Shown one piece after another: positions 5,587 through 58,704 of a stretch of DNA of 64,000 bases. Numbering within the stretch: the first letter of the stretch is position 1; each line of letters opens with the position of its first letter. Both the position numbers and the translations under genes were made by a program. This DNA is from a phage. The stretch is taken from the NCBI GenBank assembly GCA_011839185.1, contig GCA_011839185.1_3918.1; one strand, given 5' to 3'. Below the pieces are notes generated by a model. It was not told the origin of the DNA, searched no databases, and worked only from the letters and a program-made list of their open reading frames with translations.

Positions 5587-5820
5587 TCATATCAACTCCA
5601 GAATATCAATACGTTCACCCTTAAGGACTCCTGTACGGTCTCTTGCAATCTTACCGTCAACGATAAGGATATGCGCGACCTTTAAAGCCTCACGATTAAA
5701 ACCTTTTAAGAACTTGCTAGGCATCACGACAATGGACATCTCCTGAATCAACTCTGGAGTATAGCAATTGTCATGAAGTTGCTGAATAACGTCTGCAAGT
5801 GTCATTTTTGGTGTCTCCAA
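5587..5820 (-). CDS. hypothetical protein (77 aa)
   Basis: ORF only. Confidence 0.35.
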   Translation of the reverse strand: METPKMTLADVIQQLHDNCYTPELIQEMSIVVMPSKFLKGFNREALKVAHILIVDGKIARDRTGVLKGERIDILELI

Positions 5821-6011
5821 TACTCAATGTCAATAAGTTCTTGTGCAATGCTTTTCAGATTACCTTTCAAGAAAACCTTCTCAGAACCTGAAAGAGATGA
5901 ATTGTCAATTAACCTGTTCATTCTCTCAAACAACTTCTGCTTACGGTTCTTGATAGTTTCCTTTGAAGCACCTTTCATCATTGCTGCATGGGTTCTTCCA
6001 CGGTGACTCAT
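5802..6011 (-). CDS. hypothetical basic protein (69 aa)
   Basis: ORF only. Confidence 0.3.
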   Translation of the reverse strand: MSHRGRTHAAMMKGASKETIKNRKQKLFERMNRLIDNSSLSGSEKVFLKGNLKSIAQELIDIEYWRHQK

Positions 6012-51416: not shown

Positions 51417-51881
51417 TTACTTTGGATATACACTGTCAAGATAAATGTCAGCTTCCATTCTACGTCTGTTTTTCAGACCGTTTGAAGTGACCTTCTTACC
51501 TTTGACTGTAACCTTGTTCCACCACTGCATAGCTTCTGCACAACCTACCTTATTACCAGCATTGTGGCGCTTGATAAATGTGGAATCCTGCATAGCTGTG
51601 ATACCGATGTTGTATGTTTCACTTACAAGTGCATCGAACTCATTCTGAGTAGTTGGAACCTTGATAGCTTTGTTCACTGCTGCAACAAACTTCTCAACAT
51701 CCGCGAGAAGATACTGTTCAGCTTGTTCAGCGGTGATTTTCATTCCCATCTTAACAGGTTTTCCGTCAATACGGATTGTACCATACCCGATTGTTGGGAT
51801 TCCGGCAGAGTCTTCGTAAGCCTCTAACTCCAGACCTTCGAAGAACTTAATAGCTTCTAAACCTTTTCTTGAGAGTTGCAT
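51417..51881 (-). CDS. lysozyme (glycoside hydrolase family 24-like endolysin)
   Basis: N-terminal EGLELEAYEDSAGIPTIGYG matches the T4/lambda-type lysozyme catalytic region. Confidence 0.8.
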   Translation of the reverse strand: MQLSRKGLEAIKFFEGLELEAYEDSAGIPTIGYGTIRIDGKPVKMGMKITAEQAEQYLLADVEKFVAAVNKAIKVPTTQNEFDALVSETYNIGITAMQDSTFIKRHNAGNKVGCAEAMQWWNKVTVKGKKVTSNGLKNRRRMEADIYLDSVYPK

Positions 51882-52765
51882 TATGCCTCCCCTGCTGGGT
51901 TAACAGTAACTGTTGCAGCATTAGACGTTACAGAACCACCTGCACCAGTAACTACACAGGTGTAGCTTCCTGCATCAGCAGCGGTTGCACCTTCTTTGGT
52001 GTAAGTTGCAGTAGTTGCATCGAGGATGTCTTCCTCACCTTTCTTCCATTGGTAACCTGTCGCACCTGTTGCCACAACATTCAGCGTTAAGGTCTCACCT
52101 TCAGTGATTTCTTGATTTGCTGGCTGTTGAGTGATTACTGGAAGTGCATTCACAGTAACTGTTGCTGCATCTGAGGTAACACTTGTTCCACCCTCTCCAG
52201 ATACAACACAAGTGTATGAACCAGCGTCAGAAGGTGCTACTGACTGTTTTGTGTAAGTTGCAGAATTGGCACTAGGGATGTCCTCACCATCCTTTTTCCA
52301 TTGATATCCAGTGGCATTAGTTGCAATAACGCTTAGGGTAAGTGTACCCCCTTCATTTACTGTTTGATTGGTTGGTTGCTGAGTGATTGATGGTGGTGTG
52401 ATGACATCTTTCAACTTAGCATTCAACATTGAGAACGGCTTAACTCTTGCCAACCATTCACAGTAAATTGTGTCAACATCTTTACCATTGATGATTGCAT
52501 ACTGCAAATCCATGAAGAAATCAGCAGTTCTCATCTGTGCACCAACACTGTAAAGCAATTCATCACTAAATGGAACTTTGTAGTCTGGTTTGTAGTCAAA
52601 CTTCTCAACTTCTGCAATATCAGCTTCAGGCCAATATGAACTATAGGTAAGTGGTAAAATAGCCTCTTGATATGTTCTAAAATCATATCTCTTACCAGCC
52701 TTTACGTTTGCAATGAAGCCCTTCACAAACTCTTTAAAGTCTGGGTAAGTCTTTGCTTTAATCAT
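51881..52765 (-). CDS. protein with two tandem Ig-like repeats at C-terminus
   Basis: Two about 85-aa repeats (ITQQP(A/T)NQ..EG(E/G)TLTL.V.ATGATGYQWKK...GSYTCVV); N-terminal domain paralogous to next ORF. Confidence 0.5.
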   Translation of the reverse strand: MIKAKTYPDFKEFVKGFIANVKAGKRYDFRTYQEAILPLTYSSYWPEADIAEVEKFDYKPDYKVPFSDELLYSVGAQMRTADFFMDLQYAIINGKDVDTIYCEWLARVKPFSMLNAKLKDVITPPSITQQPTNQTVNEGGTLTLSVIATNATGYQWKKDGEDIPSANSATYTKQSVAPSDAGSYTCVVSGEGGTSVTSDAATVTVNALPVITQQPANQEITEGETLTLNVVATGATGYQWKKGEEDILDATTATYTKEGATAADAGSYTCVVTGAGGSVTSNAATVTVNPAGEA

Positions 52766-54390: not shown

Positions 54391-54762
54391 ATGAAAAACA
54401 GAACAAACAAAGGCCAGTTTAAAAAAGGCCAGTCTGGAAACCCATCTGGAAGACCAAAAGGCTCTCGTAACAAAAGCTCACTTGTAAAAGCTCAACTGAC
54501 CATTGATAATTCTGCTGAGTTTGCTGCAAAGTTGTTTGAAGCAATTGTTACAAGGGATGCTGCTAAGCTTGCAGAGTTCGGGTTAAACACAGACGACGTA
54601 ACCATCAAGAGCATGATTGAGGTCGGTAAAACTATCATGACTCACTCAGCAGGTGAGATGAAAGCCATTGCAGCAGACACTAAGAAGACTCCTGATAATG
54701 GTGGTCAGTCTCAGACAGATAACAAACCAACGTTCTCTGCTGTAGCGACTCTTAAAAAATAA
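54391..54762 (+). CDS. conserved phage-like protein with basic N-terminal GNPSGRPKG motif
   Basis: KGQSGNPSGRPKGSRNK motif. Confidence 0.45.
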   Translation: MKNRTNKGQFKKGQSGNPSGRPKGSRNKSSLVKAQLTIDNSAEFAAKLFEAIVTRDAAKLAEFGLNTDDVTIKSMIEVGKTIMTHSAGEMKAIAADTKKTPDNGGQSQTDNKPTFSAVATLKK

Positions 54763-54843
54763 TTTTAAAAGATGTTGACAGACTCTACAAAGTTGCTCTA
54801 AAGTCTGTCACATCAAACAACAAATGAGAGAAGAGAGTAAAAT

Positions 54844-56259
54844 ATGAGCGAATTATTTAAACATGCGCACCTTCATGCAGGTCGAACTGAAAATGGTGCT
54901 GTAAACCATACTTCATCAATGTCTGCTCTTGTAGACTTTTACAAAGCTGCTGGTTCAAGCCGTAGTAACGTAGAAATCTTACCAGACCTGTTCTACAAAG
55001 CTTTGCGTGAGGATGTTGATGTTGCAGTTCGTATTTTGCTTCATATGCGAGATGTACGAGAAGGTATGGGTGAGCGTAAAGCCTTCAGAACTGTTTTGCT
55101 TCAAGCAATTGAAGATAAAGTTTTAGAGTCTACGCAGGTTCTTCGCATTATGGATAAGATTGCAGAACTTGGTCGTTTTGATGACTTCAAAATCTTCGTA
55201 GGTACTCGTTTCGAGACAGATGCCTTCAAACATTTAGAAGAAGCATTACTAGACCCTGCAACAGCAGGTTTGGCGGCTAAGTGGTTACCACGAGTCAAAC
55301 CACGTCATAAGCAGTTTGTAAAACGTTTCTGCAAGTTTGCCAACTTGAGTGAGAAAGAGTACCGCACACTGTTGTCTGCACTATCTGATACAGTTGAGCA
55401 AAAAATCTCTGCTAATGAGTTTGGTAAGATTGACTACAGTAAGATTCCTTCACTTGCTGCTGCACGTTACCAAAAACTGTTTAACCGTAAAGATGGAGAG
55501 CGTTACAAAGCTTACATCGAGTCCTTATCAAAAGGTGAGGCTAAGATTAATGCTGGTGCTGTTTACCCATACGATGTGATTAAATCTGTCAAGCATGGTA
55601 ATGCAGATGTTGCTAATGAGCAGTGGAAAGCACTACCAAACTGGATGGCAGAAGGTGAAAACATCTTGTGTATGTCTGATGTATCAAGTTCAATGTCTTG
55701 GGTGAATTTTGGCTCCATTACTGCTCTGGATATTGGTGTATCACTTGCCTTGTATGTAGCAGAACGCAATACAGGTTGCTTTAAGAATGAGTTGATGGTT
55801 TATTCAACAAACCCTCACTTCATCGAACTGAGTGGTGATTTACGAAACCGTCATCGTCAGGTGATGCGACACGTTGAATATGGCTCAACTAACTTACAAG
55901 CAGCTTTTGACCGCATTCTTGAGACAGGCAAAAGAAACAACTTGACTCAGAAAGATATGCCAAGTAAGCTTATCATCTTCTCCGATATGGAGTTTAATCA
56001 GGTTGATGGGGCTAACGGTCGTACAAACTTTGAAGCAATTCAGAGTAAGTACAAAAAAGCTGGATATGAGATGCCACAACTGGTATTCTGGTACTTAGCA
56101 AACCGTAATGGTACTTGCGAAGTATCTGTTAAGGATAACGGTGTAGCAATGGTATCAGGGTTCTCTCCAGCCACTTTAAAAGCTCTGCTTGGTGGTGAGA
56201 AGTTTGACCCAATCAGTGTAATGCTCAAAGCAGTAATGATTGACCGTTATATCTGGTAA
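54844..56259 (+). CDS. von Willebrand factor A (vWA/MIDAS) domain protein, possibly TROVE/Ro60-related
   Basis: MIDAS-like DVSSSM ... GSTN ... FSDME in C-terminal half; 471 aa; immediately upstream of tRNA cluster. Confidence 0.55.
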   Translation: MSELFKHAHLHAGRTENGAVNHTSSMSALVDFYKAAGSSRSNVEILPDLFYKALREDVDVAVRILLHMRDVREGMGERKAFRTVLLQAIEDKVLESTQVLRIMDKIAELGRFDDFKIFVGTRFETDAFKHLEEALLDPATAGLAAKWLPRVKPRHKQFVKRFCKFANLSEKEYRTLLSALSDTVEQKISANEFGKIDYSKIPSLAAARYQKLFNRKDGERYKAYIESLSKGEAKINAGAVYPYDVIKSVKHGNADVANEQWKALPNWMAEGENILCMSDVSSSMSWVNFGSITALDIGVSLALYVAERNTGCFKNELMVYSTNPHFIELSGDLRNRHRQVMRHVEYGSTNLQAAFDRILETGKRNNLTQKDMPSKLIIFSDMEFNQVDGANGRTNFEAIQSKYKKAGYEMPQLVFWYLANRNGTCEVSVKDNGVAMVSGFSPATLKALLGGEKFDPISVMLKAVMIDRYIW

Positions 56260-56277
56260 AAAGTTTTAAAAAGGGTA

Positions 56278-56306
56278 TTGACAATGTGTTTAATACCCTT
56301 TAATAT
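56278..56306 (+). promoter_or_regulatory. sigma70-like promoter upstream of tRNA cluster
   Basis: TTGACA, 17-nt spacer, TAATAT. Confidence 0.45.
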
Positions 56307-56423
56307 GTTCTACATAGAAACGAAATGAGAGCTTTTCTAAGATACTGAAAAATATTTTAAAAAGTTCTTGACAACCACTAAAAAATAATGTTAAAGTGGT
56401 TACATAGAGTTTGAAAAGTTTAT

Positions 56424-56497
56424 CTCTGTTTAGCTCAGCTTGGTAGAGCGTTCCGTTTGGGGCGGTAAGGCCGGAGGTTCAAGTCCTCCAACAGAGA
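56424..56497 (+). tRNA. tRNA-Pro (anticodon TGG)
   Basis: Cloverleaf by eye: acceptor ctctgtt/aacagag, anticodon loop tttgggg, T-loop ttcaagt, CCA encoded. Confidence 0.75.
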
Positions 56498-56507
56498 CCA
56501 AATTAAT

Positions 56508-56582
56508 GTTCCAGTGGACAAAATGGTAAAGTCACCACTCTTTCAAAGTGGATATTTGAGGGTTCAAATCCCTTCTGGAACG
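56508..56582 (+). tRNA. tRNA-Glu (anticodon TTC)
   Basis: Acceptor gttccag/ctggaac, anticodon loop ctttcaa, T-arm gaggg-ttcaaat-ccctt, CCA encoded. Confidence 0.75.
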
Positions 56583-56676
56583 CCAGTTTTGACAGAAGAC
56601 CAATTACAGCAAACTTAATCTTATTCATCTGAAGGTAAATCGGACAAAGAAGAGATTTGGTCTGGTCATTAAGAAT

Positions 56677-56750
56677 TGCGGGTATAGAGAAAGGGCGTCT
56701 CACATGTCTCATTAGCATGGTATCGGCAGGTTCGACTCCTGCACCCGCCT
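56677..56750 (+). tRNA. tRNA with CAT anticodon (Met or Ile-lysidine type)
   Basis: Anticodon loop ctcatta; 1-72 mismatch; T-arm gcagg-ttcgact-cctgc; CCA encoded. Confidence 0.6.
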
Positions 56751-56836
56751 CCAAATTTACAGAAGACCGTTTACAGCAATATTTATTAAATTTTTAGCGG
56801 AAAAATTGAAAGATACGGTCTGGTAATACTAAACAT

Positions 56837-56910
56837 GGTTAGGAAGCACATAAGGTATGTGCGGTCGCCTGTTAAGCGAATGGCACAGGGTTCGAATCCC
56901 TGACTAACCG
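56837..56910 (+). tRNA. tRNA-Asn (anticodon GTT)
   Basis: Anticodon loop ctgttaa; T-arm caggg-ttcgaat-ccctg; CCA encoded. Confidence 0.7.
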
Positions 56911-56982
56911 CCAAATTTAGGAGAGAAGCGATTGCTCACCGATTTGTAAGGTGCAAGTCCTTAGCCTGAATAGAAATCAAAT

Positions 56983-57067
56983 GTGTCGTTATCCCGTAGA
57001 TGGTAGCGGTGGGGACTGTAAATCCCTTGTCATTGAGACTCGGTAGGTTCGACTCCTACACGGCACA
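56983..57067 (+). tRNA. tRNA-Tyr (anticodon GTA), long variable arm
   Basis: 85 nt; anticodon loop ctgtaaa; acceptor gtgtcgt/acggcac; CCA encoded. Confidence 0.7.
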
Positions 57068-57075
57068 CCAATAAA

Positions 57076-57150
57076 GGTTATGTAGTTTAATTTGGTTAAA
57101 ATACTCCCCTGTCACGGGAGATGATGAGGGTTCAAATCCCTTCGTAACCG
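57076..57150 (+). tRNA. tRNA-Asp (anticodon GTC)
   Basis: Anticodon arm ctccc-ctgtcac-gggag; T-loop ttcaaat; CCA encoded. Confidence 0.7.
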
Positions 57151-57298
57151 CCAATTTTGAGAGGGCTATTTAGCCCCTCCCTTAAAGGGTTCTTACGAGT
57201 ATCCTTTAAAGGAGCAGAAGACCAAATACAGCAAGTTACTTAAAATTTCAAGCCAATTTAATTTTGAAAAATTTAAAACTTGGTCTGGCTCAACAAAT

Positions 57299-57432
57299 TT
57301 ACAGAAGACCGTTTACAGCAAAACTTAAACAATCTATTTCTCGGTAAAGAAAAGGCGAAGGTTCGATTCCTTCACTCGGCAGATGTCGAGTTGGTGTAAT
57401 GGTAGCACTTAAGATGATAAACAACGGTCTGG
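57299..57432 (+). ncRNA. candidate structured spacer RNA with tRNA-like T-arm (unit 4 of a repeated family)
   Basis: Conserved 5' box CAGAAGACCGTTTACAGCAA pairs with 3' ACGGTCTGG; contains canonical T-arm gaagg-ttcgatt-ccttc (57357-57373) without matching 5' acceptor, and a D-arm-like agttggtgtaatggtagcac. Confidence 0.4.
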
Positions 57433-57581
57433 TAATTATCTTTGTAGATAAGTTATTAAGCTTACCTGTGAGTATGCGACCACAAAGGGTGAAAGGGTAA
57501 ATTCTAGATTTAAACCTAAAAAGGCACATCGCTACAGACCTTAAGCAAGTCTGGGTAGCTTATCTACAAAGATAATTTAAT

Positions 57582-57654
57582 GGAAGTGTAGCAGAATGGT
57601 GATGCGGCAGACTTTTAATCTGACAGGCGATGGGTTCGAATCCCTCCACTTCTA
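57582..57654 (+). tRNA. tRNA-Lys (anticodon TTT)
   Basis: Anticodon loop cttttaa; acceptor ggaagtg/cacttct; weak T-stem; CCA encoded. Confidence 0.65.
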
Positions 57655-57735
57655 CCAAATTCACCCTTAACTGAGAAACACCTGCGCGGCTGGAAACACC
57701 CACTCAACAGTTTCTCTAACTAGGGTACTTATTCT

Positions 57736-57809
57736 GGTTCAGTCGCAGATAAGGTAATGCAAGGGTCTCATAAGCCCTATGAATGTGGGTTCGATTCCCA
57801 TCTGAACCT
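57736..57809 (+). tRNA. tRNA with CAT anticodon (Met or Ile-lysidine type)
   Basis: Anticodon arm agggt-ctcataa-gccct; acceptor ggttcag/ctgaacc; CCA encoded. Confidence 0.7.
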
Positions 57810-57828
57810 CCAATTCGTTGGTGATATT

Positions 57829-58314
57829 ATGTTTTGTGCTAATAAAGATTGTGACAACAAAGCCGTTAAAGGTGGAAAGTATTGTTCACGCTCTTGTGCT
57901 GCAAGGGTAAACAACAAGAGTCATCCAAAAAGAAGACAAGAAGGCTCTTGTCATTCATGTGGAAAGCAGACACCAAAATCAAGAAAGTATTGTGATGAAT
58001 GTATTTCAAATGGTATTCTGAAACAATACAAAAACCCCGATGAAGAAAAGAAAGCGAAGTCACAACACGTTAAAAAGTCTCGTGACAAACTTAAGAGGGT
58101 TTTAGTTGATTACAAAGGTGGTTGTTGCTCAATTTGTGGATACAATAAGTGCATAAAGGCTTTAGAGTTTCACCACTTAGACCCTAATACAAAGGACTTC
58201 ACAGTAGGACAAAAACACTTCTCTATAGAGGTAATGAAGTCTGAAGTTGATAAGTGTGTATTACTGTGTGCAAATTGCCACAGAGAGGTACACGAAGGGG
58301 TAACAAAGCTGTGA
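57829..58314 (+). mobile_element. HNH endonuclease nested between tRNA genes
   Basis: C-terminal CANCHREVHEG HNH/Zn motif and multiple CxxC pairs; start reset to ATG at 57829 (track start 57757 lies inside the tRNA). Confidence 0.6.
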
Positions 58315-58380
58315 AAGCACATATGGATGTGCATTCGGCTGATAACCGAAAGGCAGAAGGTTCGAATCCTTCTCACAGTA
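58308..58380 (+). tRNA. tRNA-Ile (anticodon GAT)
   Basis: Anticodon arm ttcgg-ctgataa-ccgaa; T-arm gaagg-ttcgaat-ccttc; 5' end overlaps the HNH stop codon. Confidence 0.7.
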
Positions 58381-58398
58381 CCAATTTCAATAAAGTTG

Positions 58399-58427
58399 TT
58401 GACATTGAGATGTGACTACTTTATAGT
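58399..58427 (+). promoter_or_regulatory. sigma70-like promoter inside tRNA cluster
   Basis: TTGACA, 17-nt spacer, TATAGT. Confidence 0.45.
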
Positions 58428-58630
58428 AACCTTAGTTTTCGTTGCGTAGCGTCTATTTTGCAAATTTAAAATAAATGCAAACGACAATGTTTTTCTGGCA
58501 GTAGCTTGATAGGCTAAACACCAGTGAGGTCTTCCAATCCCTCATCAAAGAATTTGGCGTACTCGCCCACGGTATGATTAATAAGGTGGGCATCTTTAAG
58601 GGCTTTCTAAGAGAGTCTTTAAAGATTAAT

Positions 58631-58704
58631 GCACCCTTAGTTCAACTGGACAGAGCAAATGACTTCTAATCATTGAGTTACAGGTTCGAATCCTGTAGGG
58701 TGTG
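58631..58704 (+). tRNA. tRNA-Arg (anticodon TCT)
   Basis: Anticodon arm aatga-cttctaa-tcatt; acceptor gcaccct/agggtgt; CCA encoded. Confidence 0.75.

What the first reader, a model, noticed from the sequence alone, without database searches (positions are those of the whole stretch)
54844..56259. vWA/MIDAS protein immediately upstream of the tRNA cluster, possibly Ro60/TROVE-like
The C-terminal half carries MIDAS-type residues (DVSSSM, later T and D positions) as in von Willebrand A domains. Ro60 orthologs end in a comparable vWA/MIDAS domain and act with tRNA-like Y RNAs encoded next to them. I could not confirm a TROVE N-terminal domain by eye, so this is a hypothesis prompted by gene context. 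If true, the phage would encode its own RNP for RNA quality control or tRNA-fragment handling.
Basis: inference. Interest (0 to 1): 0.55.

Follow-up and report, generated by a model that had tools for sequence, protein, structure and literature searches.

The report
Phage Ro60-like protein with partner RNAs
This Felix O1-type phage gene encodes a ring-shaped Ro60-like RNA-binding protein, and just downstream, hidden among the tRNA genes, lie four small structured RNAs of an undescribed family that accompanies this protein family across very different phages and closely resembles an orphan RNA class of social amoebae.

Summary

The predicted partner RNAs also exist. Four same-strand elements sit 340-1180 nt downstream, between tRNA genes. 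Each has a 7-bp terminal stem starting A-U, G-C, then one nucleotide, then single-stranded UACAGCAA, a variable interior, and the 3' stem half followed by G. E4 carries a YrlA-like tRNA mimic in V-T-acceptor-D order.

A covariance model of this handle found 69 of 69 hits on the gene's strand in 75 distant viral loci, and 38 of 38 in 80 independent genome loci. It also found elements beside homologues in Mycobacterium, Listeria, Staphylococcus, Campylobacter and Vibrio phages. Stem covariation is strong. Rfam holds no such family.

A model built only from Dictyostelium Class I RNAs finds the same phage elements (37 of 37 on the gene strand). Protein-RNA binding and function remain inferred.

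The parts
54775..54804 (+). sigma-70-like promoter (TTGACA-N18-TAAAGT) upstream of the gene
   Evidence: Consensus scan, 10 of 12 matches. This is a pattern match only.
54844..56259 (+). CDS, 471 aa: Ro60-like protein of the DUF2828/DUF7788 family
54844..55653 (+). N-terminal all-helical domain (about aa 1-270), TROVE/HEAT-ring-like by fold
55663..56208 (+). C-terminal vWA domain (aa 274-455) with MIDAS motif: DxSxS at 55678-55692, T349 at 55888-55890, D381 at 55984-55986
   Evidence: Pfam DUF7788. The MIDAS residues are invariant. A profile of the family aligns this motif to Ro60 'DVSASM' (E 0.42).
56278..56397 (+). two sigma-70-like promoters (56278-56306 and 56368-56397) ahead of the tRNA/small-RNA cluster
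   Evidence: Consensus scan, 10 of 12 matches each. The second has the same hexamers and spacing as the gene's own promoter.
56593..56667 (+). handle RNA E1 (stem AGACCAA/UUGGUCU, UACAGCAA motif), between tRNA-Glu and tRNA-Met
   Evidence: Exact motif. CM R1 42.3 bits, E 8.9e-8. Fold.
56760..56825 (+). handle RNA E2 (stem AGACCGU/ACGGUCU), between tRNA-Met and tRNA-Asn
   Evidence: CM R1 46.2 bits, E 1e-8. Also hit by the Dictyostelium-only model R2 (17.7 bits) and by Rfam RF01414 (20.1 bits).
57215..57290 (+). handle RNA E3 (stem AGACCAA/UUGGUCU)
   Evidence: CM R1 42.0 bits, E 1.1e-7.
57305..57434 (+). handle RNA E4, with a tRNA-like interior: V hairpin about 57333-57355, T-arm 57357-57373 (GAAGG-UUCGAUU-CCUUC), 7-bp acceptor-like hairpin 57374-57391, D-arm-like hairpin 57393-57409
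   Evidence: It was not in the CM seed, yet scores 27.6 bits, E 3.4e-4. MFE structures. It aligns with 10 similar elements from other loci whose T and acceptor stems covary. Rfam tRNA partial hit at 57353-57373.
56424..62203 (+). cluster of 26 tRNA genes in which E1-E4 are embedded (context, probably co-transcribed)
   Evidence: ARAGORN and Rfam.

Best explanation
The gene encodes a Ro60-like protein: an N-terminal helical-repeat ring domain plus a C-terminal vWA/MIDAS domain. It belongs to the DUF2828/DUF7788 family, a sister of the TROVE family at the fold level. I propose that it assembles into ribonucleoproteins with the small RNAs E1-E4 encoded just downstream in the tRNA cluster. These RNAs share a 'handle'. 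The 5' and 3' ends pair in a 7-bp stem whose two outer pairs are always A-U and G-C. One nucleotide later comes single-stranded U(A/U)CAGCAA, and a G follows the 3' half of the stem. I take the handle to be the protein-binding site, playing the role of the Ro60-binding stem of Y RNAs. The interior of each RNA is a variable module. In E4, and in many relatives, it is a tRNA mimic of the YrlA type. By analogy with Rsr/YrlA/PNPase and with Thermus phage phiRo60/Yrl/PNPase, the RNA module would tether the ring to host RNA-processing or tRNA-recognising enzymes, or block them. The aim would be to handle misfolded or damaged RNA, or to damp host RNA decay or tRNA-directed defence during infection. 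The RNAs are probably released from the tRNA polycistron by the tRNA-processing nucleases. Shown here: the fold, MIDAS conservation, RNA structure with covariation, and gene-RNA co-localisation with complete strand bias across phages of at least four bacterial phyla. Inferred: physical binding, the processing route and the physiological role.

For: RNA in the window. Four exact AGAAGACCnnnTACAGCAA copies, with 0 of 100 shuffles reaching the total of 6 matches found at up to 3 mismatches. They are the only significant CM R1 hits in 64 kb when every position is scored; the next best hit has E 0.43.

Covariation. 98.1% of cells are paired against 65.4% in shuffles (0 of 500 shuffles reach the observed value). 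There are 75 double-change cells against 20.5. Slid controls give 32-44% paired. The inner five pairs use all four Watson-Crick types.

Association. 69 of 69 R1 hits lie on the gene strand in 46 of 75 viral loci with 38-47% protein identity. In an independent set of 80 genome loci, none of which contributed to the seed, 38 of 38 hits lie on the gene strand. Elements also lie next to homologues in Mycobacterium phage Loadrie and in Listeria, Staphylococcus, Campylobacter and Vibrio phages. No protein-coding neighbour is conserved across loci. At least 16 loci have elements but no tRNA within 6 kb. Mini-elements sit in the gene's own 5' leader in about a dozen loci, which suggests autoregulation.

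tRNA mimicry. Rfam YrlA hits the interior of the L024 element (39.2 bits, E 2.3e-7). Thirteen of 50 long elements have a canonical T-arm where about 1 is expected. RNAalifold finds compensatory changes in 17 of 19 pairs across the outer, T and acceptor stems.

Precedent. Ro60 with YrlA encoded within 4 kb on the same strand (PMC4201824). Phage phiRo60 binds Yrl RNAs and PNPase (PMC12135203). In Listeria phage LMTA-148 the gene lies 1.3 kb upstream of RtcB and a tRNA ligase, echoing the bacterial rsr-yrlA-rtcBA operons (operon arrangement recalled from memory).
Against: No binding, expression or end-mapping data exist for either the protein or the RNAs. There is no Pfam TROVE hit at E<=1, and sequence-profile similarity to Ro60 is only marginal (E 0.42). 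The handle is unlike the canonical Ro60-binding helix (GNCGAA motif). Rfam YrlA covers only the tRNA-like core in L024, and E4 is not detected by Rfam YrlA at E<=10. Co-localisation is not absolute. About 29 of 75 viral loci and 54 of 80 genome loci gave no R1 hit. In a reverse search, 13 well-formed elements lay in tRNA clusters with no homologue in the fetched stretch, and one phage group has none within 8.8 kb upstream or 4.9 kb downstream. The MFE z-scores of the short elements on their own are unremarkable (-0.9 to -1.6). The function is argued purely by analogy.
Confidence: 0.7

Rival explanations
1. The handle elements are processing, stability or punctuation signals of phage tRNA operons. 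Examples would be leader-trailer helices recognised by RNases. They lie near the DUF2828 gene only because both are housed in tRNA regions, and the protein does not bind them.
For: In the window the elements sit between tRNA genes. Twenty-six of 60 distant loci have same-strand tRNA or tmRNA genes nearby. Thirteen well-formed elements were found inside tRNA clusters with no homologue in the fetched stretch. One element (L045 5730-5837) encloses a bona fide tRNA-like sequence (Rfam tRNA 52.9 bits).
Against: Many loci have elements immediately next to the gene but no tRNA within 6 kb. These include L008, L011, L013, L018-L022, L025, L038, L043, L054, L059, L061, L064 and L066, and also Loadrie. 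Mini-elements lie in the gene's own leader. Most tRNA genes in these clusters have no such element. An invariant single-stranded 8-mer points to a sequence-specific protein partner, and DUF2828 is the only conserved neighbour.
Confidence: 0.12
2. The elements are purely cis-regulatory sites on mRNAs. The protein, or another factor, would bind them to autoregulate translation or stability. They would not be stable trans-acting Y-like RNAs.
For: In about a dozen loci a short version (interior 8-18 nt) lies 10-50 nt upstream of the start codon. Examples are L009, L012, L014, L015, L029, L031, L040, L054, L059 and L076, and Vibrio phi-ST2.
Against: In the window the four copies are downstream of the gene, behind two further promoters, and are interspersed with tRNAs. 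Many elements carry 60-230-nt interiors with conserved tRNA-like modules, which is pointless for a simple operator. This rival is compatible with the main explanation, since binding of the same handle in the leader would be autoregulation.
Confidence: 0.1
3. The protein is a generic vWA/MIDAS protein unrelated to Ro60 in function. It could be a MoxR/metal-chelatase-type co-chaperone or an adhesion or assembly factor.
Against: The full-length fold matches Ro60 with a clear gap to vWA-only hits. No AAA+ partner gene is nearby. The conserved neighbour is a structured RNA.
Confidence: 0.03
4. The Ro60-like ring acts mainly on the phage's own pre-tRNAs or on damaged tRNAs, as a chaperone or quality-control factor. 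The handle RNAs would be decoys or regulators of that activity rather than tethers to host nucleases.
For: Ro60 binds misfolded pre-5S rRNA and other RNAs through its central hole (PDB titles 2i91 and 9nep). The gene is embedded in tRNA clusters in many lineages. tRNA-like modules recur. RtcB and a tRNA ligase are neighbours in the Listeria phage.
Against: There is no direct evidence. Many phages that carry the gene and its RNAs have no tRNA cluster nearby.
Confidence: 0.2

Closest known systems
Bacterial Ro60 (Rsr) with YrlA/Yrn Y RNAs (the RYPER complex with PNPase)
   Different: Different Pfam families: DUF2828/DUF7788 rather than TROVE, with 11-15% identity. The protein-binding handle is a 7-bp stem plus single-stranded UACAGCAA, not the GNCGAA helix. 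Most copies are short RNAs with no tRNA-like module. There is no evidence yet for a PNPase partnership.
Thermus phage phiLo phiRo60 with Yrl1/Yrl2 (PMC12135203; PDB 9kop, 9l5y)
   Different: phiRo60 is a canonical TROVE-domain protein. Its RNAs and its attenuation of PNPase were shown experimentally, whereas nothing has been tested for the DUF2828 family.
'Ro-like RNA binding protein' of cluster E-type mycobacteriophages (e.g. Loadrie gp54)
   Same: True homologue: 33-34% identity, the same DUF2828+DUF7788 architecture, and the same kind of handle RNAs plus a YrlA-like module in the downstream gap.
   Different: High-GC host. The outer stem pairs are U-A/G-C (UGG...CCAG) and the motif variant is AACAGCAA. 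The annotation is a name only, and I found no paper describing its RNAs.
Dictyostelid Class I RNAs (Rfam RF01414; PMC7919456)
   Same: Same design: AAG start, a terminal stem of 6-7 bp that covaries, UACAGCAA within the 11-nt motif CCUUACAGCAA directly after the 5' stem half, a variable interior, a CUG(U) end, and a length of about 50-70 nt. A CM built only from 25 Class I RNAs hits the phage elements 37 of 37 times on the gene strand, with a best E of 1.5e-5. Some Class I RNAs also carry GGUUCGAUCC T-arm-like hairpins.
   Different: These are eukaryotic nuclear genes with a DUSE promoter. The spacer between stem and UACAGCAA is 2 nt rather than 1. The phage elements score below Rfam's gathering threshold (15.7-26.9 bits against 41.5). 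The only named direct binder is the RRM protein Rnp1A/CIBP. No link to a DUF2828 protein has been reported or could be tested here.

Membership tests
DUF2828/DUF7788 (Pfam PF11443 + PF25043; PHROG 850) | Scores above the Pfam gathering thresholds for both domains | tested here: met
   DUF7788 148.9 bits (cut-off 27.1). DUF2828 104.2 bits (cut-off 29). PHROG 850 E 2e-184 over the full length.
Ro60 / TROVE family (Pfam PF05731) | Sequence match to the TROVE domain profile | tested here: not met
   No TROVE hit at E<=1 in Pfam. Family profile against the PDB sequence of Ro60: only E 0.42, confined to the MIDAS region.
Ro60 / TROVE family | Helical-repeat ring domain followed by a vWA domain (the Ro60 fold) | tested here: met
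Ro60 / TROVE family | MIDAS motif (DxSxS...T...D) in the vWA domain | tested here: met
   D279, S281, S283, T349 and D381 are invariant in 40 sequences. The motif aligns to Ro60 DVSASM.
Ro60 / TROVE family | Binds Y RNA on the outer ring surface and misfolded RNA in the central hole | not testable with these tools
   Needs biochemistry or a structure. The only indirect evidence is conserved basic residues and co-located RNAs.
YrlA Y RNA (Rfam RF02553) | tRNA-like core with T, acceptor-like and D stem-loops in that order | tested here: met
   E4 folds as V-T-AS-D. In the alignment of 11 elements, the T, AS and outer stems covary. The related element in L024 hits RF02553 positions 24-84 (39.2 bits, E 2.3e-7).
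YrlA Y RNA (Rfam RF02553) | Reaches Rfam's gathering score (69 bits), including the Ro60-binding stem with the GNCGAA motif | tested here: not met
   No RF02553 hit on the window at E<=10. L024 reaches 39.2 bits and Loadrie 21.4 bits, for the core only. The closing stem carries UACAGCAA instead.
Dictyostelid Class I RNA (Rfam RF01414) | Short terminal stem with covariation; conserved motif next to the 5' stem half; conserved AAG start and CUG(U) end | tested here: met
   Seven-bp stem, 98.1% paired, with five covarying pairs. UACAGCAA equals 8 of the 11 motif nucleotides. aAAG and CUG flanks are seen. The Dictyostelium-only CM R2 hits 37 of 37 on the gene strand. RNA ends were not mapped.
Dictyostelid Class I RNA (Rfam RF01414) | Reaches Rfam's gathering score (41.5 bits); DUSE promoter about 60 nt upstream | tested here: not met
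   Phage elements score 15.7-26.9 bits. The promoters here are bacterial sigma-70-like.

The most novel reading that the evidence does not exclude
DUF2828-type Ro60-like proteins and 'UACAGCAA-handle' RNAs form an ancient, previously unrecognised RNP class, parallel to Ro60-Y RNA. It would span phages of many bacterial phyla, giant viruses and eukaryotes. On this reading, the Class I RNAs of dictyostelid social amoebae are its eukaryotic members. Those RNAs are abundant, developmentally regulated, of unknown mechanism, and reported to be unique to Dictyostelia. Their missing core partner would then be a DUF2828 protein. A candidate is DDB_G0281243, the protein of unknown function pulled down with DdR-21. 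I could not determine what DDB_G0281243 is, nor whether dictyostelids encode a DUF2828 protein at all.
Probability: 0.35. Interest if true: 0.92.

Novelty: new variant of a known kind. Interest (0 to 1): 0.82.

Why it matters
Ro60-Y RNA particles are a classic RNA-surveillance system, but their bacterial and phage biology is known from only a handful of TROVE-family cases.

This work shows three things. A second, sequence-unrelated-looking protein family has the same fold. DUF2828/DUF7788 occurs in 710 of about 50,700 phage records and also in giant viruses. That family travels with its own family of structured RNAs, which was absent from Rfam 15 in my scans and from the papers I could search. 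These RNAs repeat the Y-RNA design of a binding handle plus an effector module, which is often a tRNA mimic.

This gives a concrete, testable function to a large 'domain of unknown function'. It explains unannotated gaps in the tRNA clusters of well-used phages such as Felix O1 and wV8, Listeria P100/A511-like phages, Campylobacter CP81-like phages and KVP40-like Vibrio phages. It also flags small 'hypothetical protein' ORFs that overlap the RNA elements and are probably mis-annotated.

The specific similarity to Dictyostelium Class I RNAs offers a direct experimental route into the mechanism of an orphan eukaryotic RNA class: test DUF2828 proteins as their partners.

Tried and rejected
1. Sequence-level assignment to TROVE failed. 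Pfam (E<=1), NCBIfam and phmmer against PDB gave nothing useful. The family profile against PDB reached only E 0.42 for Ro60. Homology therefore rests on fold comparison.

2. Rfam scans of the window found no Y_RNA or YrlA family. E4's tRNA-like core is not detected by RF02553.

3. I looked for a conserved protein partner, such as an AAA+ ATPase, an RNA ligase or the upstream DUF5681 gene, by clustering neighbouring ORFs in 76 loci. None is conserved outside individual lineages. The two largest 'neighbour' clusters were antisense ORFs inside the gene itself.

4. The AFDB Foldseek library was not available, so eukaryotic DUF2828 proteins, Dictyostelium's included, could not be listed.

5. I tried to identify DDB_G0281243 and any dictyostelid DUF2828 protein through papers and supplements. 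The only vWA protein found in the stored 6% of the D. firmibasis proteome is unrelated. Avesson et al. 2011 is not held.

6. Reverse search for the handle pattern in viral contigs. Most matches (99 of 122) were chance hits without a stem. Of the 23 with a stem, only 6 had the gene in the fetched stretch. Follow-up showed one phage group with no homologue within 8.8 kb upstream or 4.9 kb downstream.

7. Literature searches for DUF2828, DUF7788 and UACAGCAA returned nothing relevant. Burroughs & Aravind 2016 is not held.

8. The hairpin overlapping the gene's promoter (54777-54812) was considered as a leader copy of the handle and rejected. Only 4 of 8 motif bases match, and there is no CM hit.
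Full report
THE OBSERVATION

The ORF at 54844-56259 (+) is real and encodes 471 aa. The window is a Felixounavirus. The region is 98.6% identical to Escherichia phage wV8 and O157 typing phage 1, and 253 phage records match it. In wV8 the gene is gp047, named 'RNA-binding protein' in RefSeq and 'vWFA protein' or 'hypothetical protein' elsewhere.

Immediately downstream lie 26 tRNA genes (56424-62203), all on the + strand.

They are D279-V-S281-S-S283-M, T349 and D381, and all five are invariant in a 40-sequence alignment reaching 40% identity.

WHAT THE PROTEIN IS

By sequence it is a DUF2828 (E 9.5e-30) plus DUF7788 (E 1.7e-43) protein. It has no TROVE hit at E<=1. It belongs to PHROG 850, 'RNA-binding protein' (E 2e-184). 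Sequence searches against the PDB gave nothing for the single protein. The family profile gave only E 0.42-0.63 to Ro60, at the MIDAS strand.

An AlphaFold2 model built on the 40-sequence alignment is confident: pLDDT 88.7, pTM 0.88, helical through about aa 263 and then an alpha/beta vWA domain.

- Foldseek against the PDB puts Ro60 structures in all of the first 11 places, aligned over the full length (E 7e-8 to 5e-6, TM up to 0.67). Ku80, midasin and integrin-type vWA domains start at E 3e-3.
- Among predicted viral structures, the best matches are DUF2828/DUF7788 proteins of phages and of giant viruses (Pithovirus, CroV, Marseillevirus, ChoanoV1). Canonical TROVE or 'Ro-like' phage proteins follow at E 1e-9 to 1e-8.

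So the protein has the Ro60 architecture but belongs to a distinct sequence family.

tblastn finds homologues in 710 phage records. Among them are 95 Mycobacterium phage records; the five sampled include four labelled 'Ro-like RNA binding protein' and one 'RNA-binding protein'. I checked one, Loadrie gp54. It is DUF2828+DUF7788, not TROVE. From memory, the resemblance of cluster E mycobacteriophage proteins to human Ro was noted as early as Pedulla et al. 2003. The protein-level idea is therefore not new.

THE PARTNER RNAs IN THE WINDOW

Reading the tRNA cluster, I noticed four + strand copies of AGAAGACCnnnTACAGCAA at 56594, 56761, 57216 and 57303. Allowing up to 3 mismatches, the search found 6 matches in the window, and 0 of 100 shuffles reached that number. 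Each copy is followed 35-101 nt later by a sequence that pairs back to it. The pairing is AGACCAA/UUGGUCU in E1 and E3, and AGACCGU/ACGGUCU in E2 and E4, which is a compensatory difference.

E4's interior folds into four hairpins inside the closing stem:
- a variable hairpin;
- a T-arm, GAAGG-UUCGAUU-CCUUC;
- a 7-bp acceptor-like hairpin;
- a D-arm-like hairpin.

That V-T-AS-D order is exactly how Chen et al. describe bacterial YrlA Y RNAs (PMC4201824).

Rfam found no Y RNA family in the window. It found only sub-threshold hits of E1 and E2 to Dictyostelium Class I RNA.

IS THE RNA REAL, AND IS IT LINKED TO THE GENE?

I fetched 80 viral loci encoding homologues. Seventy-five of them have only 38-47% protein identity to the window protein.

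The 8-mer TACAGCAA occurs 101 times on the gene's strand and 22 times on the other strand. It clusters within a few hundred nt of the gene. The context is always the same:
- (a)AAG, then five variable nucleotides;
- one spacer nucleotide;
- U(A/U)CAGCAA;
- a variable interior of 23-236 nt;
- the complement of the five variable nucleotides;
- CUG.

Under one fixed descriptor there are 66 elements in the 146 kb flanking the genes on the gene strand, against 9 in 863 kb of the opposite strand.

MAFFT aligned 30 short elements in register without any structural input. On that alignment the 7-bp stem behaves as follows:
- 98.1% of cells are paired, against 65.4% in shuffles (0 of 500 shuffles reach the observed value);
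- 75 cells have changes on both sides, against 20.5 in shuffles;
- slid controls give 32-44% paired;
- the two outer pairs (A-U, G-C) never vary;
- the inner five pairs use all four Watson-Crick types.

I built a covariance model from this alignment (R1) and scored every position of the window with it. It finds only the four elements, at 46.2, 42.3, 42.0 and 27.6 bits. E4 was not in the seed. The next best hit has E 0.43.

Results of R1 on other sequence sets:

| Set searched | Hits at E<=0.1 | On the gene strand | Loci with a hit |
|---|---|---|---|
| 75 distant viral loci | 69 | 69 | 46 of 75 |
| 80 loci from bacterial and archaeal genome assemblies, none in the seed | 38 | 38 | 26 of 80 |

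In the independent genome set, nearly all hits lie within about 500 nt of the gene ends.

R1 on annotated phages:

| Phage | Elements found | Position |
|---|---|---|
| Mycobacterium phage Loadrie | 2, plus a YrlA-like core | in the 368-nt gap after the gene |
| Listeria phage LMTA-148 | 3 | upstream of the gene |
| Staphylococcus phage S-CoN_Ph1 | 3 | downstream of the gene |
| Campylobacter phage CP81 | 2 | between a tRNA cluster and the gene |
| Vibrio phage phi-ST2 | 1 | in the 5' leader |

No protein-coding neighbour is conserved across loci. tRNA or tmRNA genes lie within 6 kb in 26 of 60 loci and are always on the same strand. However, at least 16 loci have elements next to the gene with no tRNA nearby. 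The link is therefore to the gene, not merely to tRNA regions.

tRNA-LIKE MODULES

Thirteen of 50 long elements contain a canonical T-arm, where about one would be expected by chance.

An RNAalifold consensus of 11 such elements shows compensatory changes in 17 of 19 pairs across the outer stem, the T-arm and the 7-bp acceptor-like stem. It also shows a conserved D-arm sequence, UAGCUCAGU-UGGUAGAGCA.

The element beside the gene in L024 hits Rfam YrlA over model positions 24-84 (39.2 bits; E 4e-5 in a 63-kb scan and 2.3e-7 locally). Its closing stem carries the handle variant ACCGCAA instead of the Ro60-binding helix.

One element (L045) instead encloses a D-anticodon-T ordered, tRNA-like sequence (Rfam tRNA 52.9 bits). 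Chen et al. describe both orientations among Y RNAs.

HOW IT PROBABLY WORKS

The conserved handle is the obvious candidate for the protein's binding site, and the interior is an exchangeable effector module. That is the Y-RNA logic.

In the window, the gene and the tRNA/RNA cluster have separate sigma-70-like promoters. One cluster promoter (56368) has the same hexamers and spacing as the gene's promoter at 54775; the other is at 56278. The RNAs sit between tRNAs, so RNase P and the tRNA 3' processing enzymes would release them. That step is an inference.

Short handle copies lie in the gene's 5' leader in about a dozen loci, which suggests autoregulation by the same interaction.

By analogy with Rsr/YrlA/PNPase and with phiRo60/Yrl/PNPase (PMC12135203), I propose that the RNP tethers or blocks host RNA-processing or tRNA-recognising enzymes, or handles damaged RNA. 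The RtcB and tRNA-ligase genes 1.3 kb downstream in the Listeria phage fit an RNA-repair context, like the bacterial rsr-yrlA-rtcBA operons (operon arrangement recalled from memory).

None of this has been tested. I put 0.7 on 'Ro60-like protein that forms RNPs with these RNAs', and considerably less on any specific physiological role.

CAVEATS

Co-localisation is not absolute.
- Many loci gave no hit, especially the Firmicutes MAG lineages at 30-34% identity. The motif may have diverged there, or the RNAs may lie elsewhere.
- In a reverse search for the handle pattern, 23 of 122 matches had a full stem. Only 6 of those had the gene in the fetched stretch, all on the same strand, at a median distance of 218 nt. 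Thirteen more lay inside tRNA clusters with no homologue in reach.
- One group of roughly 100-kb contigs has no homologue within 8.8 kb upstream or 4.9 kb downstream of its element.
- E-values from the home-made models are rough.

THE DICTYOSTELIUM CONNECTION

Rfam's only hint, RF01414, led me to the Class I RNA literature. These RNAs have the following properties (PMC7919456):
- length 42-65 nt, abundant, and developmentally regulated;
- an AAG start;
- a short terminal stem whose structure, not sequence, is conserved;
- an 11-nt motif (CCUUACAGCAA) directly after the 5' stem half;
- a variable interior and a CUGU end;
- 'no evidence ... in any other organism'.

That is the phage handle with a 2-nt spacer instead of a 1-nt spacer.

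I took 25 Class I sequences from five dictyostelid species from the paper's supplement. I aligned them and built a model from them alone (R2). I then searched 960 kb of phage sequence on both strands. All 37 hits with E<=1 are on the DUF2828 gene's strand and fall on the handle elements. The best E-values are 1.5e-5, 2.7e-5, 5.6e-5 and 9.2e-5. Elements of the Listeria and Staphylococcus phages and E2 of the window are among the hits.

Some Class I RNAs (asu_can_20, ppa_can_99) even contain GGUUCGAUCC T-arm-like hairpins.

[quoted passage not shown] They are GuaB, NdkC, CIBP/Rnp1A and DDB_G0281243, 'function unknown' (10.1101/2020.04.05.026054).

I could not find out what DDB_G0281243 is. I also could not find out whether dictyostelids encode a DUF2828 protein. 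The family does occur in plants (papers) and in giant viruses of protists.

The RNA-level similarity is therefore shown. The protein link in amoebae is a hypothesis, to which I give about 0.35.

VERDICT

The protein assignment is in line with existing annotation of homologues. The associated RNA family and its reach appear to be undescribed: it was absent from Rfam 15 in my scans, and the paper library returned nothing relevant. I rate the finding a new variant of a known kind, a Ro60-Y RNA-type RNP, with high interest.

Noticed in passing
window 57299-57529 (-): A 76-aa ORF lies antisense to RNA element E4 and its flank. wV8 annotates an ORF (gp048, 'hypothetical protein') at the corresponding place, though I did not align the two. 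It is probably not a gene.
   Followed up: partly
window 57757-58314 (+): A 185-aa ORF with CxxC pairs and an HNH-like C-terminus (wV8 annotates an 'HNH endonuclease' in this cluster). It sits inside the tRNA cluster and overlaps the end of tRNA-Met (57736-57812) and the start of tRNA-Ile (58308-58383). It looks like a homing-endonuclease insertion.
   Followed up: no
window 56270-56301 (+): A 12-bp hairpin lies immediately after the gene's stop codon and overlaps the -35 box of the next promoter (56278). It could be a terminator or a regulatory hairpin.
   Followed up: no
window 58441-58630 (+), and other tRNA-free gaps at 58707-58946, 59035-59291, 60027-60851 and 61277-62031: A weak tmRNA-like Rfam hit (15.9 bits, E 0.0055) lies in a 250-nt gap of the tRNA cluster. 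Several other gaps of 240-820 nt were not examined for further non-coding RNAs. The handle model R1 finds nothing in any of them.
   Followed up: partly
window 51881-52765 (-): A 294-aa protein whose C-terminal half is two tandem Ig-like repeats (QQPxNQxxxEGxTLTLxVxATxATGYQWKK...GSYTCVV). wV8 annotates a 'tail protein' at about this position.
   Followed up: no
L045 5730-5837 (+): A handle element whose interior is a complete tRNA-like sequence in normal D-anticodon-T order (ARAGORN tRNA-Thr 5753-5824; Rfam tRNA 52.9 bits). The handle here would be a leader-trailer helix around a tRNA.
   Followed up: partly
L283 (Listeria phage LMTA-148) 5310-6455: RtcB and a 'tRNA-splicing ligase' gene lie 1.3 kb downstream of the DUF2828 gene on the same strand. 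This echoes the bacterial rsr-yrlA-rtcBA operons (operon arrangement recalled from memory).
   Followed up: no
L286 3971-4060 (Staphylococcus phage S-CoN_Ph1 CDS0133); L284 2403-2540 (Campylobacter phage CP81 ORF140): Small annotated 'hypothetical protein' CDSs coincide with strong handle-RNA hits (39.2 and 36.2 bits). They are probably mis-annotated non-coding RNA genes.
   Followed up: partly
Supplement of PMC7919456 (files 48 and 56): The dictyostelid Class I RNAs asu_can_20 and ppa_can_99 contain GGUUCGAUCC T-arm-like hairpins. The authors' outgroup table lists an Arabidopsis candidate (ath_can_1, CM score 40) with stem GUUUUC/GAAAAC, UACAGCAA and a CUG end. Plants have DUF2828 proteins.
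   Followed up: no
L198 (and L179, L195, L290, L291; contigs of about 94-128 kb): A well-formed handle element (AGAGCAC-a-UACAGCAA...GUGCUCUG) lies between two tRNA-Leu genes in a large tRNA cluster. No DUF2828 homologue lies within 8.8 kb upstream or 4.9 kb downstream. Neighbours include a 792-aa ORF with an RdRP-like domain, a metallophosphoesterase and DUF6273. Whether the gene is elsewhere on these contigs is unknown.
   Followed up: partly
window 54391-54762 (+): The upstream 123-aa gene (named DUF5681 in RefSeq) is co-oriented with the Ro60-like gene. It is conserved as a neighbour only within the Felix O1 group, not in the distant loci.
   Followed up: partly
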